Origin: an uncultured Planctomycetota bacterium
GTDB taxonomy: Bacteria; Planctomycetota; Planctomycetia; Gemmatales; HRBIN36
Direction: 5' to 3'
NCBI GenBank assembly: GCA_937944855.1
Contig: CALFAY010000003.1
Location: forward strand, 64,470 to 128,469
DNA: 64,000 nucleotides
The notes under the pieces were generated by a model, which was not told the DNA's origin, searched no databases, and saw only the letters and a program-made list of their open reading frames with translations. The position numbers were made by a program, and so were the translations under genes. Below, one piece after another: positions 58,023-58,607 of this stretch; position 1 is the stretch's first letter, and the number at the start of each line of letters is the position of its first letter.

Positions 58023-58607
58023 ATGTACAGTCTCGTTCTCGCAATGGCTTTGAGCGGCAACGCGGCCGCTCCGGCCACGTTCGGCTGCCACTATTTCGGC
58101 TGCCACGGGTGCTACGTTTCCTGCCACGGCTGCCACGGCTGCCACGGGTGCTGGGGGTGCCACGGCTACTGCGGATTCTTCGGACGGCTGTTCTGCCACG
58201 GGTGCTGGGGCTGGCACGGCTGCCACGGAACGTGCTATGGCTGCCACGGATGCTACGGCTGCCACGGCTGCCACGGCTGCTGCGGTCATGCCCCGGTGTA
58301 CGTGAAGCCCGCCGAGGAAACCCCGAAGCCTGAGCCGAAGGAAGAAAAGAAGGAAGAGAAGAAGGAAATGGCTCGTCTGGTCGTGACTCTGCCCGCCGAG
58401 GCGGTCCTGACCGTTGACGGCAATCCGACCAAGTCCACCTCCAGCACCCGCGTCTTCGTGACCCCGGCTTTGGAGCGGGGCAAGGACTACGTTTACACGC
58501 TCCAGGCCGAGATCAACGGCCAGACCGTGACCAAGCAGGCCATCGTCCGGGCCGGTGAAGAGACCCGCATCACCATCGAAGTCCCGGCCGCCACGGTGGC
58601 CAAGTAA
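58023..58607 (+). CDS. secreted (G-C-H/Y/W)n repeat protein with Lys/Glu/Pro linker and C-terminal TIGR03000 domain
   Basis: GAGGAG precedes the ATG at 58023. Signal MYSLVLAMALSGNAAAP. FGCHYFGCHGCYVSCHGCHGCHGCWGCHGYCGFFGRLFCHGCWGWHGCHGTCYGCHGCYGCHGCHGCCGH. ARLVVTLPAEAVLTVDGNPTKSTSSTRVFVTPALERGKDYVYTLQAEINGQ...VRAGEETRITIE matches the TIGR03000 pattern. Confidence 0.85.
   Translation: MYSLVLAMALSGNAAAPATFGCHYFGCHGCYVSCHGCHGCHGCWGCHGYCGFFGRLFCHGCWGWHGCHGTCYGCHGCYGCHGCHGCCGHAPVYVKPAEETPKPEPKEEKKEEKKEMARLVVTLPAEAVLTVDGNPTKSTSSTRVFVTPALERGKDYVYTLQAEINGQTVTKQAIVRAGEETRITIEVPAATVAK
58083..58289 (+). repeat. 9-nt-periodic coding repeat GGCTGCCAC (Gly-Cys-His) and variants
   Basis: Runs such as ctgccacggctgccacggctgccacgggtgctgggggtgccacggc. 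They cause the Ala/Val-rich shadow ORF 57918..58289 on the minus strand. Confidence 0.9.

What the first reader, a model, noticed from the sequence alone, without database searches (positions are those of the whole stretch)
58023..58607. Secreted protein with an extreme Gly-Cys-(His/Tyr/Trp) triplet repeat fused to a TIGR03000 domain
A Sec-type signal is followed by about 70 residues that are almost entirely G-C-H, G-C-Y and G-C-W triplets. I count 19 Cys and 13 His. They are encoded by a 9-nt-periodic GGCTGCCAC repeat (58083-58289). Next come a KPEPKEEKKEEKKE linker and a TIGR03000-type beta domain. This density of thiol and imidazole ligands in an exported protein suggests high-capacity binding of soft metals (Cu/Zn/Ni/Co), a redox-active or disulfide-crosslinked surface module, or an Fe-S/metal cluster scaffold. 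The gene has its own promoter-like and terminator signals. It sits next to an ECF-like sigma gene and 2 kb from a CcoI-like metal ATPase cluster. The TIGR03000 family itself has no assigned function.
Basis: partly seen in the sequence, partly recalled or inferred. Interest (0 to 1): 0.65.

Follow-up and report, generated by a model that had tools for sequence, protein, structure and literature searches.

The report
Gly-Cys-His repeat planctomycete envelope protein
This is a real, conserved gene for a small protein, probably exported, from a Gemmatales planctomycete; its extreme glycine-cysteine-histidine stretch is the normal hallmark of a very large uncharacterised family (TIGR03000) and more likely serves as a cross-linking cell-envelope "arm" than as a dedicated metal binder.

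Summary
ORF 58023-58607 (+) encodes 194 aa: a hydrophobic leader, a 69-aa Gly-Cys-X arm (19 Cys, 13 His), a Lys/Glu/Pro linker and a TIGR03000 domain (60.8 bits, cut-off 43.1). It is not a one-off. A search found 752 relatives, and nearly all of the best 120 share the architecture. The C-domain family has about 10,650 cluster representatives, labelled Gemmataceae/Gemmatales where named. Across relatives Gly and Cys are conserved, but the third residue is Tyr (33%), then His (22%), then Trp/Cys/Ser/Asn. The window protein is a His-rich extreme. Two syntenic orthologs keep the leader, a GFFxRLF motif and the distal CYGCHGCYGCHGC block (13 synonymous, 0 non-synonymous changes against the closer ortholog). 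The stretches in between are rebuilt in frame. No neighbour recurs family-wide: no maturase, transporter or metal gene. The sigma and ATPase genes are linked only in close orthologs. AlphaFold2 gives a confident small β-sandwich and a disordered arm. Other family members carry Pro-rich or true collagen arms instead. Best reading (about 0.4): an exported, disulfide- and aromatic-cross-linking envelope matrix protein. Metal buffering (about 0.25) remains possible for this His-rich member.

The parts
57860..57889 (+). sigma-70-type promoter-like site, TTGACA-18 nt-TAGGAT
   Evidence: 10 of 12 matches; 0.1 expected in shuffles. Both hexamers are conserved in ortholog L003 (TTGACA / TAAGAT).
57890..58022 (+). 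5' leader of about 130 nt, with a small conserved hairpin (GTCGC-TTGGT-GCGAC, 57951-57965) and a GAGGAG Shine-Dalgarno sequence at 58009-58014
   Evidence: Sequence. The hairpin arms and the SD are conserved in L003 while the surrounding bases diverge. No Rfam match. The leader overall is not unusually structured (z +1.1).
58023..58607 (+). CDS, 194 aa, TIGR03000 domain-containing protein with a Gly-Cys-His arm
   Evidence: 752 relatives. Syntenic orthologs L003 (72% identity) and L083 (54%). Purifying selection.
58023..58082 (+). family-specific hydrophobic leader MYSLVLAMALSGNAAAPATF (residues 1-20); probable signal peptide, with likely cleavage near SGNA|AAP
   Evidence: M-Y-S-[VLIM]-V-[LM] is nearly invariant in 114 of 120 relatives, and none has K/R in the first 12 residues. 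Best 8-residue hydropathy is 2.5, similar to the canonical signal peptides of other family members. Cleavage and export are inferred, not tested.
58083..58289 (+). Gly-Cys-X low-complexity arm (residues 21-89; 19 Cys, 13 His, 20 Gly); contains the conserved mid-arm motif GFFGRLFCH and the conserved distal block GCHGTCYGCHGCYGCHGCHGCCGH
   Evidence: AF2 pLDDT 42-46, i.e. predicted disordered. Distal 33 codons: 13 synonymous and 0 non-synonymous differences against L003, while the middle is unalignable. G-x-y runs of 7, 4 and 6 triplets.
58290..58370 (+). linker APVYVKPAEETPKPEPKEEKKEEKKEM (residues 90-116), Lys/Glu/Pro-rich
   Evidence: Linker length is 15-40 aa across the family. It is replaced by a (PA)n repeat in ortholog L083.
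58371..58571 (+). TIGR03000 domain (HMM residues 117-183; folded unit about 112-188), a small all-beta sandwich
   Evidence: NCBIfam 60.8 bits vs cut-off 43.1. AF2 pLDDT 93-97 with six strands. dN/dS about 0.14 against L003. Only generic beta-sandwich structural matches.
58625..58646 (+). short hairpin just after the stop codon (GGACATC-loop-GATGTCC)
   Evidence: Visible in the sequence and largely conserved in L003. Not analysed further.
58681..58720 (+). intrinsic terminator: 13-bp bulged GC-rich stem followed by TTTCTTTTTT
   Evidence: Fold dG -23.2 kcal/mol, z -4.8, 0 of 200 shuffles as stable. Conserved, with compensatory changes, in L003. Missed by the simple scan because of the bulge.

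Best explanation
The gene encodes a modular, exported envelope protein of a Gemmatales planctomycete. It is one paralog of a very large lineage-specific family. It is transcribed alone from its own promoter and ended by its own terminator. A short family-specific hydrophobic leader takes it across the cytoplasmic membrane. The C-terminal TIGR03000 beta-sandwich is the folded 'foot' that docks the protein to a partner, to another envelope component or to itself. The N-terminal Gly-Cys-(His/Tyr/Trp) arm is a flexible low-complexity segment. Its many C-x-x-C-spaced thiols form disulfides within and between chains, and its aromatic/imidazole side chains stack. Together these knit the protein into the SDS-resistant proteinaceous wall layer described for planctomycetes. 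In material terms it would be a bacterial counterpart of keratin-associated or high-cysteine chorion proteins. Shown here: the gene is real and under purifying selection; the architecture is family-wide; the arm evolves by in-frame repeat turnover between fixed anchor motifs; there is no operon partner; other family members carry alternative structural arms. Inferred: export, oxidation state, cross-linking and localisation.
For: (1) The architecture is family-wide: 752 relatives, and 114 of the best 120 start with MYS[VLIM]V[LM] followed by Gly-Cys-X arm, linker and TIGR03000. The C-domain family has 10,651 cluster representatives at E<=1e-3. (2) Composition rather than exact sequence is conserved in most of the arm: G 34%, C 27%, Y 10.5%, H 7%, D+E about 0.5%. 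The residue after G-C is Y 33%, H 22%, W 9%. Arm length ranges from 40 to 146 aa. Cys number is even in only 59 of 121 proteins, so there is no fixed intramolecular disulfide scheme and some thiols are left for intermolecular bonds. (3) Three syntenic orthologs have 15, 19 and 35 Cys and entirely different expansions (GCH units, an irregular insert, SSCGC units) between conserved anchors. (4) The same C-domain follows other typically structural arms: Pro-rich (21 representatives), Gly/aromatic (2) and a Pfam-verified collagen triple-helix repeat in P0136 (41.5 vs 27.2 bits). It is never joined to an enzymatic or metal-handling domain. (5) Several copies occur per genome, some in tandem, each a stand-alone gene in an unrelated context, as is usual for structural multigene families. 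(6) Export is supported by canonical K/R-containing signal peptides on 7 family members that lack the MYS leader and by the beta-sandwich fold type. (7) A near-consensus promoter, strong SD and strong terminator, all conserved in the ortholog, fit an abundantly expressed product. (8) Literature: planctomycete walls are dominated by protein, and cysteine-rich proteins of another family (YTV) are their major constituents in R. baltica, G. obscuriglobus and T. immobilis (PMC8567305, PMC5287468, PMC12673574).
Against: There is no direct evidence of expression, export, disulfide formation or wall localisation. No paper in the library mentions TIGR03000, and the term does not occur in the part of the Tuwongella proteome supplement that is held. 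The leader lacks the positive n-region of ordinary Sec signals, and no predictor could be run. The distal arm, including its His residues, is perfectly conserved against L003 despite 13 synonymous changes, and the GFFxRLF motif is conserved in all three orthologs. This points to sequence-specific interactions such as ligand, metal or partner binding, not just bulk cross-linking. This member's His content (17.6% of the arm, against a subtype mean of 6.7%) is unexplained by a purely structural role. The analogy to keratin-associated and chorion proteins rests on composition and on my general knowledge, not on homology.
Confidence: 0.4

Rival explanations
1. Periplasmic or surface metal buffer. 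The reduced arm binds Zn(II), Cu(I), Ni(II) or Co(II) through arrays of C-x-x-C thiolates and His imidazoles, much like overlapping DnaJ-type CxxCxG zinc knuckles or a metallothionein. The TIGR03000 domain anchors this sponge in the envelope.
For: The arm has 19 Cys and 13 His in 69 residues with C-x-x-C spacing. This member is among the four most His-rich of 121. The distal CYGCHGCYGCHGC block, including its His residues, is strictly conserved against L003 (13 synonymous, 0 non-synonymous) and is mostly kept in L083. A Cu-type P-type ATPase cluster lies 2.7 kb away in this lineage. The chemistry of C-x-x-C-H-G motifs as Zn sites is established for DnaJ (my knowledge).
Against: His is dispensable across the family: Tyr is commoner than His, and 25% of arms have 2 or fewer His. 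Ortholog L083 expands with Ser/Cys/Tyr units instead. Aromatics make up about 15-20% of arms, whereas classical metallothioneins lack them. Asp/Glu are absent. No metal-resistance or uptake gene recurs near family members in 80 loci. There is no metal riboswitch and no Pfam metallothionein hit. Thiols in the exported compartment are expected to be oxidised. Having several paralogs per genome is atypical for metal buffers.
Confidence: 0.25
2. Rod-like surface fibre. The Gly-every-third arm adopts a polyproline-II or collagen-like conformation with a Gly face, a Cys face and a His/Tyr face. Disulfides zip the strands into bundles, and the C-terminal beta-sandwich nucleates oligomerisation. This would be analogous to BclA and other bacterial collagen-like proteins, which have a leader, a length-polymorphic triplet repeat and a C-terminal beta domain.
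For: G-x-y runs of 7, 4 and 6 triplets cover 72% of the window arm, against a mean longest run of 3.1 in shuffles. Family-wide P(Gly at +3 | Gly) is 0.54, with 75% Cys at X and Tyr/His/Cys/Trp at Y. The only similarity of the arm to known sequences, and that sub-threshold, is to collagen (Pfam 13.4 bits; PDB collagen chains). Family member P0136 has a true collagen repeat in the same position.
Against: Periodicity is often broken across the family: the median longest run is 5 triplets and median coverage is 34%. The arms have essentially no Pro (0.2%) and few charged residues, and they have many aromatics, which disfavour triple helices (helix propensities from my knowledge). AF2 gives no structure for the arm. 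The Pfam Collagen threshold is not met. A 27-aa linker separates the arm from the domain.
Confidence: 0.1
3. Periplasmic thiol-disulfide redox buffer. The poly-CXXC arm acts as a sacrificial or reversible redox sink that protects envelope proteins from oxidants, as the Cys/Gly/Tyr-rich mussel protein Mfp-6 does in adhesive plaques.
For: Dense C-x-x-C spacing (56% of Cys-Cys distances are 3). Probable exported location. A CcdA/DsbD-type (DsbD_2) membrane protein is encoded nearby in this lineage.
Against: There is no thioredoxin fold or catalytic context. No association with Dsb or Ccd genes appears across 80 loci. Conserved aromatic content and a dedicated folded anchoring domain are not needed for a redox sink.
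Confidence: 0.07
4. Multi-haem or haem-scavenging protein. The six CXXCH motifs created by GCH repeats are substrates for cytochrome c maturation.
For: There are six CXXCH motifs in 69 residues. The protein is probably exported. Haem lyases accept short CXXCH peptides (my knowledge).
Against: CXXCH is depleted family-wide relative to a within-arm shuffle (227 observed vs 272 +/- 9, z -5). 24 of 121 relatives have none. In the window protein the count equals the compositional expectation (6 vs 6.1). The motifs overlap too densely to all carry haem. There is no cytochrome Pfam hit.
Confidence: 0.03
5. Ribosomally made, post-translationally modified peptide precursor. The conserved MYS leader is recognised by a maturase, and the (Cys-Xaa-Xaa)n core is converted to thiazoles or thioethers, as in heterocycloanthracins/TOMMs, or modified by a radical-SAM enzyme as in the His-Xaa-Ser system.
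For: A strongly conserved leader is followed by a hypervariable Cys-Xaa-Xaa repeat core. There is a weak hit to HxsA4 (18.9 bits).
Against: The HxsA4 score is far below its cut-off of 55. No cyclodehydratase, radical-SAM enzyme, protease or ABC exporter is adjacent here, in L001/L002 or recurrently in 80 loci. A folded 75-aa C-terminal domain under purifying selection, and several dispersed paralogs per genome, are atypical for such precursors.
Confidence: 0.02

Closest known systems
TIGR03000 domain-containing proteins (NCBIfam plancto_dom_1) of Gemmataceae/Gemmatales
   Same: Passes the curated HMM cut-off. It has the same leader, Gly-Cys-X arm, linker and C-terminal domain as hundreds of database proteins already annotated with this name.
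   Different: It lies at the His-rich extreme (17.6% His in the arm vs 4-7% typical) and has an unusually regular GCH triplet run. The family has no assigned function, and no paper in the library mentions it.
Cysteine-rich YTV-motif cell-wall proteins of Planctomycetia (R. baltica, G. obscuriglobus, T. immobilis)
   Same: Both are Cys-rich and planctomycete-specific, and both are exported or likely exported. YTV proteins are the experimentally identified major wall proteins (PMC8567305, PMC5287468, PMC12673574).
   Different: The Pfam YTV model matches neither the window protein, nor 8 full-length relatives, nor 35 C-domains. The family is therefore sequence-distinct. Its wall localisation has not been shown.
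Keratin-associated proteins (high-sulfur and high-Gly/Tyr) and silkmoth high-cysteine chorion proteins
   Same: They have Gly/Cys/Tyr-dominated low-complexity composition. They form multigene families with rapid repeat turnover. They act as disulfide- and aromatic-cross-linked matrix material (my knowledge; composition).
   Different: They are eukaryotic and not homologous, and they lack a C-terminal beta-sandwich domain. The comparison is an analogy of material only and was not tested here.
Bacterial collagen-like surface proteins (e.g. Bacillus BclA)
   Same: They share the layout of a short N-terminal targeting segment, a length-polymorphic Gly-X-Y triplet repeat and a C-terminal beta-rich domain. 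Family member P0136 contains a true collagen repeat.
   Different: The arm here has Cys/aromatic instead of Pro/Thr at X/Y, its periodicity is interrupted, and the Pfam Collagen threshold is not met (13.4 vs 27.2 bits). The C-domain is a roughly 75-aa sandwich, not a C1q/TNF-like jelly roll.
Metallothioneins and DnaJ-type CxxCxGxG zinc-knuckle arrays
   Same: They have about 27% Cys, C-x-x-C spacing, Gly after the pair and His in the CxxCHG context.
   Different: The arm is rich in aromatics. His is not conserved among relatives. The protein is probably exported. There is no HMM match and no metal-gene context.
Chlamydial cysteine-rich outer-membrane-complex proteins OmcA/OmcB (same PVC superphylum)
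   Same: They illustrate the concept of an envelope stiffened by disulfide-cross-linked Cys-rich proteins in a lineage with reduced peptidoglycan (my knowledge).
   Different: There is no sequence or domain similarity, and the chlamydial proteins are not low-complexity repeats.

Membership tests
TIGR03000 (plancto_dom_1) domain family | Score at or above the curated NCBIfam cut-off for the roughly 75-residue domain | tested here: met
   60.8 bits vs 43.1, residues 117-183, profile positions 3-73 of 75.
TIGR03000 (plancto_dom_1) domain family | Planctomycete origin | tested here: met
   All 80 genome loci with the same leader and domain are labelled Gemmataceae, Gemmatales, Planctomycetota or similar. 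A few bins mislabelled 'Alcaligenaceae' are the exception. Named protein hits are labelled likewise.
TIGR03000 (plancto_dom_1) domain family | Family-typical architecture: MYS leader, Gly-Cys-X arm, linker, C-terminal domain | tested here: met
   114 of 120 best relatives share the leader and arm. 54 of 94 diverse representatives with a full N-region have a Gly-Cys-aromatic arm.
YTV cell-wall proteins (Pfam PF07639) | Match to the YTV repeat model | tested here: not met
   There was no YTV hit at E<=1 for the window protein or at E<=0.1 for 8 relatives. YTV was not among the 25 listed families (of 35 found) for 35 C-domains at E<=1.
YTV cell-wall proteins (Pfam PF07639) | Presence in SDS-insoluble wall preparations | not testable with these tools
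   Published wall and fractionation proteomes name only YTV proteins. 'TIGR03000' does not occur in the texts or in the part of the supplement that is held.
Metallothionein-like metal binders | Cys-rich C-x-C / C-x-x-C clusters | tested here: met
   19 Cys in 69 residues. 56% of Cys-Cys spacings in the family are 3.
Metallothionein-like metal binders | Ligand residues conserved among relatives, few aromatics, HMM match to a metallothionein family | tested here: not met
   His is variable (0-23 per arm). Y+W+F+H is about 22% of arms. There is no Pfam hit.
Metallothionein-like metal binders | Measured metal stoichiometry | not testable with these tools
   Requires ICP-MS on purified protein.
c-type cytochromes | CXXCH haem-attachment motif, conserved among homologs | tested here: not met
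   The motif is present 6 times here. It is absent in 24 of 121 relatives, depleted family-wide (z -5), and at compositional expectation in the window protein.
Collagen-like proteins (Pfam PF01391) | Uninterrupted Gly-X-Y repeat passing the Pfam threshold | tested here: not met
   13.4 bits vs 27.2. Runs of 7, 4 and 6 triplets with interruptions. By contrast P0136 passes with 41.5 bits.
RiPP precursors (TOMM/heterocycloanthracin, His-Xaa-Ser system) | Precursor HMM match and adjacency to maturase or exporter genes | tested here: not met
   HxsA4 scores 18.9 bits vs 55. There are no such neighbours in the window, in L001/L002 or recurrently in 80 loci.
Sec (SPase I) signal peptide | Positively charged n-region, hydrophobic h-region, small residues at -3/-1 | tested here: inconclusive
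   The h-region is present (8-mer hydropathy 2.5). Small residues at positions 12 and 14 fit cleavage after SGNA. No K/R occurs in the n-region in any of 114 relatives. No dedicated predictor was available.

The most novel reading that the evidence does not exclude
The Gly-Cys-aromatic arms of this family (more than 7,000 cluster representatives at E<=1e-10) are the building material of a disulfide-zipped, aromatic-stacked protein exoskeleton in Gemmatales. That would make them a bacterial counterpart of keratin-associated and chorion proteins. The arms may be organised as polyproline-II or collagen-like strands with separate Gly, Cys and His/Tyr faces, anchored by the TIGR03000 beta-sandwich. 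His-rich members such as this one would add reversible metal loading. This would identify a new class of bacterial cell-envelope material and help explain the long-known SDS-resistant protein walls of planctomycetes.
Probability: 0.25. Interest if true: 0.75.

Novelty: new member of a known kind. Interest (0 to 1): 0.42.

Why it matters
Planctomycetes have been known since the 1980s for walls dominated by protein, but only one class of wall protein (YTV) has been identified. This gene belongs to a second, much larger, lineage-specific family of Cys-rich proteins that are probably exported. No paper in the searched library mentions it. If its Gly-Cys-aromatic arms are the cross-linking matrix of the Gemmatales envelope, several things would follow. 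It would give a concrete molecular handle on how these bacteria build a rigid envelope with reduced peptidoglycan. It would provide a bacterial example of keratin-associated-protein-like material. It would also supply a natural series of Tyr-, Trp-, His- and Ser-flavoured poly-CXXC polymers of interest for biomaterials and metal capture. If the arms instead prove to be metal or redox buffers, the family would be an unusually expanded periplasmic thiol system. For the window itself the result is sobering: the striking repeat is typical of its family, and its apparent links to the sigma factor and the Cu-ATPase cluster are coincidental synteny.

Tried and rejected
(1) Link to YTV wall proteins: the Pfam YTV model does not match. 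P0121, which looked like a 43-repeat relative, is a cadherin-repeat giant scoring through summed matches of about 6 bits each. It is a false positive.
(2) My guess that the C-domain is a PEGA or CarboxypepD_reg domain: only sub-threshold hits in 4 and 3 of 35 members. Foldseek against the PDB gave no hit at E<=0.001; the best was 9k1u_B at 1.2e-3, and the rest were generic Ig-like sandwiches. A profile search of PDB sequences found nothing.
(4) Conserved gene neighbourhood: all-vs-all clustering of flanking ORFs in 80 loci found no family-wide partner. The best neighbour, a DUF2617-like ORF, occurs in 13 loci, which I read as one orthologous synteny group.
(5) Paralogs in the window: none.
(6) Riboswitch or structured leader: none.
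(7) Haem attachment as a selected function: CXXCH is depleted family-wide.
Only ortholog-level comparison was possible.
(9) Proteomic evidence: 'TIGR03000' does not occur in the Tuwongella or Gemmata proteome papers or in the held supplement text. The key envelope-evolution paper (Mahajan 2020, GBE) is not held.
(10) The alternative ORFs over the repeat, 57918-58289 (-) Ala/Val-rich and 58109-58333 (+) Leu-Pro-Arg-rich, are frame artefacts of the GC-rich triplet repeat.
(11) An upstream TTG start at 57993 is rejected. The ATG has a conserved GAGGAG SD 8 nt upstream, the sequence further upstream diverges with indels in L003, and 114 of 120 relatives start at MYS.
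Full report
OBSERVATION. ORF 58023-58607 (+) encodes 194 residues. A GAGGAG Shine-Dalgarno sequence lies 8 nt upstream of the ATG. Residues 21-89 (nt 58083-58289) read GCHYFGCHGCYVSCHGCHGCHGCWGCHGYCGFFGRLFCHGCWGWHGCHGTCYGCHGCYGCHGCHGCCGH. This stretch has 19 Cys, 13 His and 20 Gly. 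Tandem Repeats Finder finds a period-9 array at 58121-58280, with 17.4 copies, consensus CTGCCACGG and 66% matches. A Lys/Glu/Pro linker (residues 90-116) follows. Next comes a domain that passes the curated TIGR03000 cut-off, 60.8 vs 43.1 bits at residues 117-183. Pfam has no model for any part of the protein.

The gene has a near-consensus promoter-like site, TTGACA-18-TAGGAT, at 57860-57889. It also has a strong intrinsic terminator at 58681-58720 (dG -23.2 kcal/mol, z -4.8). The neighbours are as described: TrpRS upstream; a sigma-70/ECF-superfamily protein and phosphofructokinase downstream; then DsbD_2, a heavy-metal/Cu P-type ATPase and a FixS-like gene on the minus strand.

IT IS A FAMILY TRAIT, NOT A SINGULARITY. 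A search of 5.8 billion proteins returned 752 relatives at E<=1e-3. Of the best 120, 114 begin M-Y-S-[VLIM]-V-[LM]. They continue with a hydrophobic leader of about 20 residues, then a Gly-Cys-X low-complexity arm, a Pro/Lys/Glu/Ala linker and the TIGR03000 domain. Where sources name these proteins, they are 'TIGR03000 domain-containing protein' from Gemmataceae, Gemmatales or Planctomycetes.

An exhaustive profile search with the C-domain alone found 10,651 cluster representatives at E<=1e-3 and 7,039 at E<=1e-10. A scan of one genome per species found 90 loci with the same leader, all in planctomycete assemblies. Two to five loci per genome matched even this narrow pattern, and four loci held tandem pairs. 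The window holds a single copy.

WHAT IS AND IS NOT CONSERVED. Over 121 arms the composition is G 33.7%, C 26.6%, Y 10.5%, H 7.0%, S 6.5% and W 3.0%. Asp, Glu, Pro and aliphatic residues are almost absent. After 'GC' the next residue is Tyr 33%, His 22%, Trp 9%, Cys 9%, Ser 8% or Asn 6%. Cys-Cys spacing is 3 in 56% of cases. Arm length ranges from 40 to 146 residues. The number of Cys is even in only 59 of 121 proteins. So Gly and Cys define the arm, the third position is free among aromatic and polar residues, and no fixed disulfide scheme exists.

The window protein is among the four most His-rich members. Leader subtype correlates with arm flavour. '..MMALSG' leaders go with more His, Ser, Asn and basic residues and with a G-x-L-F motif. 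'..ML-T..' leaders go with more Tyr/Trp. Even within its own subtype the window protein is an outlier, at 17.6% His against a mean of 6.7%.

ORTHOLOGS. Two syntenic orthologs were found. L003 is from a Gemmatales MAG (SKYG27) and is 72% identical; the sigma-like gene, PFK, DsbD_2 and the ATPase lie downstream. L083 is from a metagenome contig and is 54% identical; TrpRS lies upstream and the sigma-like gene downstream. All three keep an identical leader, a mid-arm motif GFF[GH][RK]LF[CR]H and the distal block CYGCHGCYGCHGC.

Against L003, the distal 33 codons show 13 synonymous and 0 non-synonymous differences. The leader shows 7 and 1. The C-domain shows 18 and 8, giving dN/dS of about 0.14. 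The gene is therefore expressed and constrained. Between the anchors the arm is rebuilt in frame: GCH units in the window, an irregular Val/Ser-containing insert in L003, and SSCGC/CYSSC units in L083. Cys counts are 19, 15 and 35, and His counts are 13, 12 and 9. The linker is KE-rich in two orthologs and a (PA)n repeat in the third. However, the His-rich expansion is lineage-specific. The promoter hexamers, a small leader hairpin, the SD and the terminator (with compensatory changes) are also conserved in L003.

STRUCTURE. AlphaFold2 with a 42-sequence alignment models residues 112-188 as a six-strand beta-sandwich at pLDDT 93-97. The arm scores pLDDT 42-46, i.e. no predicted structure. Foldseek against the PDB gives no match at E<=0.001. 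The best is a 76-residue chain of entry 9k1u (TM 0.68 on the target), followed by generic Ig-like, fn3-like and sugar-hydrolase sandwich domains. Sequence profiles find no solved relative. Pfam gives only sub-threshold PEGA, CarboxypepD_reg and fn3-like hints. The domain is best described as a small extracytoplasmic-type beta-sandwich of unknown partner.

CONTEXT AND DOMAIN ASSOCIATIONS. Relatives on long contigs lie in unrelated neighbourhoods. Clustering all flanking ORFs from 80 loci shows no family-wide partner. The most frequent neighbour occurs in 13 loci, which I read as one orthologous group. No maturase, transporter, Dsb or metal gene recurs. The sigma and ATPase proximity seen in the window is therefore shared only with close orthologs.

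Among 145 more diverse representatives, 94 have an N-region of at least 45 aa. Of these, 54 have Gly-Cys-aromatic arms, 21 Pro-rich arms, 2 Gly/aromatic arms with few Cys, 16 other types and one a collagen-like arm. The last one (P0136) passes the Pfam Collagen threshold, 41.5 vs 27.2 bits. No enzymatic or metal-handling domain is ever fused. Seven members without the MYS leader carry canonical K/R-containing signal peptides. This supports an extracytoplasmic location for the family. The MYS leader itself has no K/R in any of 114 sequences and could not be run through a dedicated predictor.

MECHANISM. The best-supported reading is a modular exported envelope protein: a folded TIGR03000 'foot' plus a flexible Gly-Cys-aromatic 'arm'. 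The arm would cross-link through disulfides and aromatic stacking into the protein-dominated wall layer of planctomycetes. Several observations fit this reading:
- Conservation acts on composition rather than exact sequence in most of the arm.
- Cys parity is random, and repeats turn over rapidly.
- The genes are multicopy and stand-alone.
- The arm is interchangeable with Pro-rich and collagen arms.
- The expression signals are strong.
- Cysteine-rich proteins of another family (YTV) are the major wall constituents in R. baltica, G. obscuriglobus and T. immobilis (PMC8567305, PMC5287468, PMC12673574).

Export, oxidation, cross-linking and localisation are all inferred. I put this reading at about 0.4.

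RIVALS. Metal buffering (about 0.25) is chemically plausible for this His-rich member. The perfectly conserved distal CYGCHGCYGCHGC block suggests something more specific than bulk cross-linking. Against it stand the dispensability of His across the family and in L083, the high aromatic content, the lack of any metal-gene association and the absence of a riboswitch.

A collagen or PPII-like rod (about 0.1) is suggested by Gly at every third residue. Runs of 7, 4 and 6 triplets cover 72% of the window arm, against a mean longest run of 3.1 in shuffles. The only sequence resemblance of the arm, and that sub-threshold, is to collagen. However, periodicity is often interrupted across the family, Pro is absent, and the Pfam threshold is not met.

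A redox sink (about 0.07) has no specific support. Haem attachment (about 0.03) is disfavoured. CXXCH motifs are depleted family-wide (227 vs 272 +/- 9, z -5). In the window protein they occur exactly as often as composition predicts, 6 vs 6.1. A RiPP precursor role (about 0.02) lacks any maturase context, and the HxsA4 hit (18.9 vs 55 bits) merely reflects low complexity.

COMPARISON WITH THE KNOWN. The protein is a bona fide member of the TIGR03000 family, and every testable defining feature is met. It is not a YTV protein, a metallothionein, a cytochrome, a collagen or a RiPP precursor by the tests available. It works most like keratin-associated or chorion matrix proteins. That is an analogy from composition and my general knowledge, not homology. 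In layout it resembles bacterial collagen-like surface proteins such as BclA.

VERDICT. The gene is a new, unusually His-rich member of a known but functionally blank family. The window instance is ordinary for its family. The family itself is an under-appreciated candidate for planctomycete envelope material, and no paper in the searched library mentions it. Interest 0.42.

Noticed in passing
window 58819-59403 (+): The downstream sigma-70/ECF-superfamily protein (borderline, 43.7 vs 42.9 bits; Pfam finds only region 4) has an N-terminal Lys-rich segment followed by a hydrophobic one (MKKKAKLTGHRGYVTALLVGTALWTLASSAADA), then a C-x-x-C (YCTVCW). This looks like a signal peptide or membrane anchor, which is odd for a sigma factor. 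The extension is conserved at the protein level in L003.
   Followed up: partly
window 58083-58289; relatives P0001, P0002, P0007, P0026, P0037, P0040, P0062; L003, L083: A basic-hydrophobic motif is embedded in the Cys-rich arm: GFFGRLFCH here, and G-G-[HR]-[RK]-L-[FL]-G-G-L-F-[KN]-[RK]-H in relatives, sometimes in 2-4 copies. It occurs in 43% of 'MMALSG'-leader proteins against 11% of the others, and it is conserved in all three syntenic orthologs. Its role is unknown; it could be a partner-binding, membrane-binding or processing site.
   Followed up: partly
window 58023-58082 and 114 relatives: The leader M-Y-S-[VLIM]-V-[LM]-x-x-A-L-[ST]-G-x-A-x-x-P-[AD]-[FW]-G is nearly invariant and has no Lys/Arg at all. 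This degree of conservation is unusual for a generic signal peptide. It hints at a dedicated recognition or sorting step.
   Followed up: partly
P0136 (450 aa): This family member has a canonical signal peptide, an N-terminal region of about 140 aa, a true collagen triple-helix repeat (Pfam 41.5 bits) and two TIGR03000-type domains. It is a planctomycete collagen-like protein.
   Followed up: partly
L001 10848-11399; 13 of 80 genome loci (e.g. L033 6722-7267): A DUF2617-like ORF of about 180 aa lies immediately downstream of one subgroup of family members, followed by RNase R in L001. I read this as one orthologous synteny group. The window lacks it.
   Followed up: no
L013, L016, L067, L070: Tandem pairs of TIGR03000 Gly-Cys-arm genes indicate local duplication as one route of family expansion.
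   Followed up: no
window 57918-58289 (-) and 58109-58333 (+): Long ORFs in other frames and on the other strand across the repeat (an Ala/Val-rich 123-aa ORF and a Leu-Pro-Arg-rich 74-aa ORF) are by-products of the GC-rich triplet repeat. Gene callers could mis-annotate them.
   Followed up: yes
window 57951-57965 and 58625-58646: There are two small hairpins: GTCGC-TTGGT-GCGAC in the 5' leader, and GGACATC-GGGAGGGA-GATGTCC just after the stop codon. Their arms are conserved in L003 while flanking bases diverge. They may be mRNA stability or regulatory elements. Neither matches Rfam.
   Followed up: partly
window 60583-63988 (-): A DsbD_2 membrane protein, a Cu-type P1B ATPase, a 58-aa ORF and a weak FixS-like ORF form a ccoI/ccoS-style cbb3-oxidase maturation cluster. 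The DsbD_2 and ATPase genes are conserved in the same order in L003. The cluster is unrelated to the finding.
   Followed up: partly
family-wide (178 arms): CXXCH haem-attachment motifs are significantly under-represented in the arms relative to a shuffle of post-Cys residues (z -5). One possible reason is selection against accidental haem ligation in exported Cys/His-rich sequences. Another is a preference for His inside rather than after the C-x-x-C pair.
   Followed up: partly
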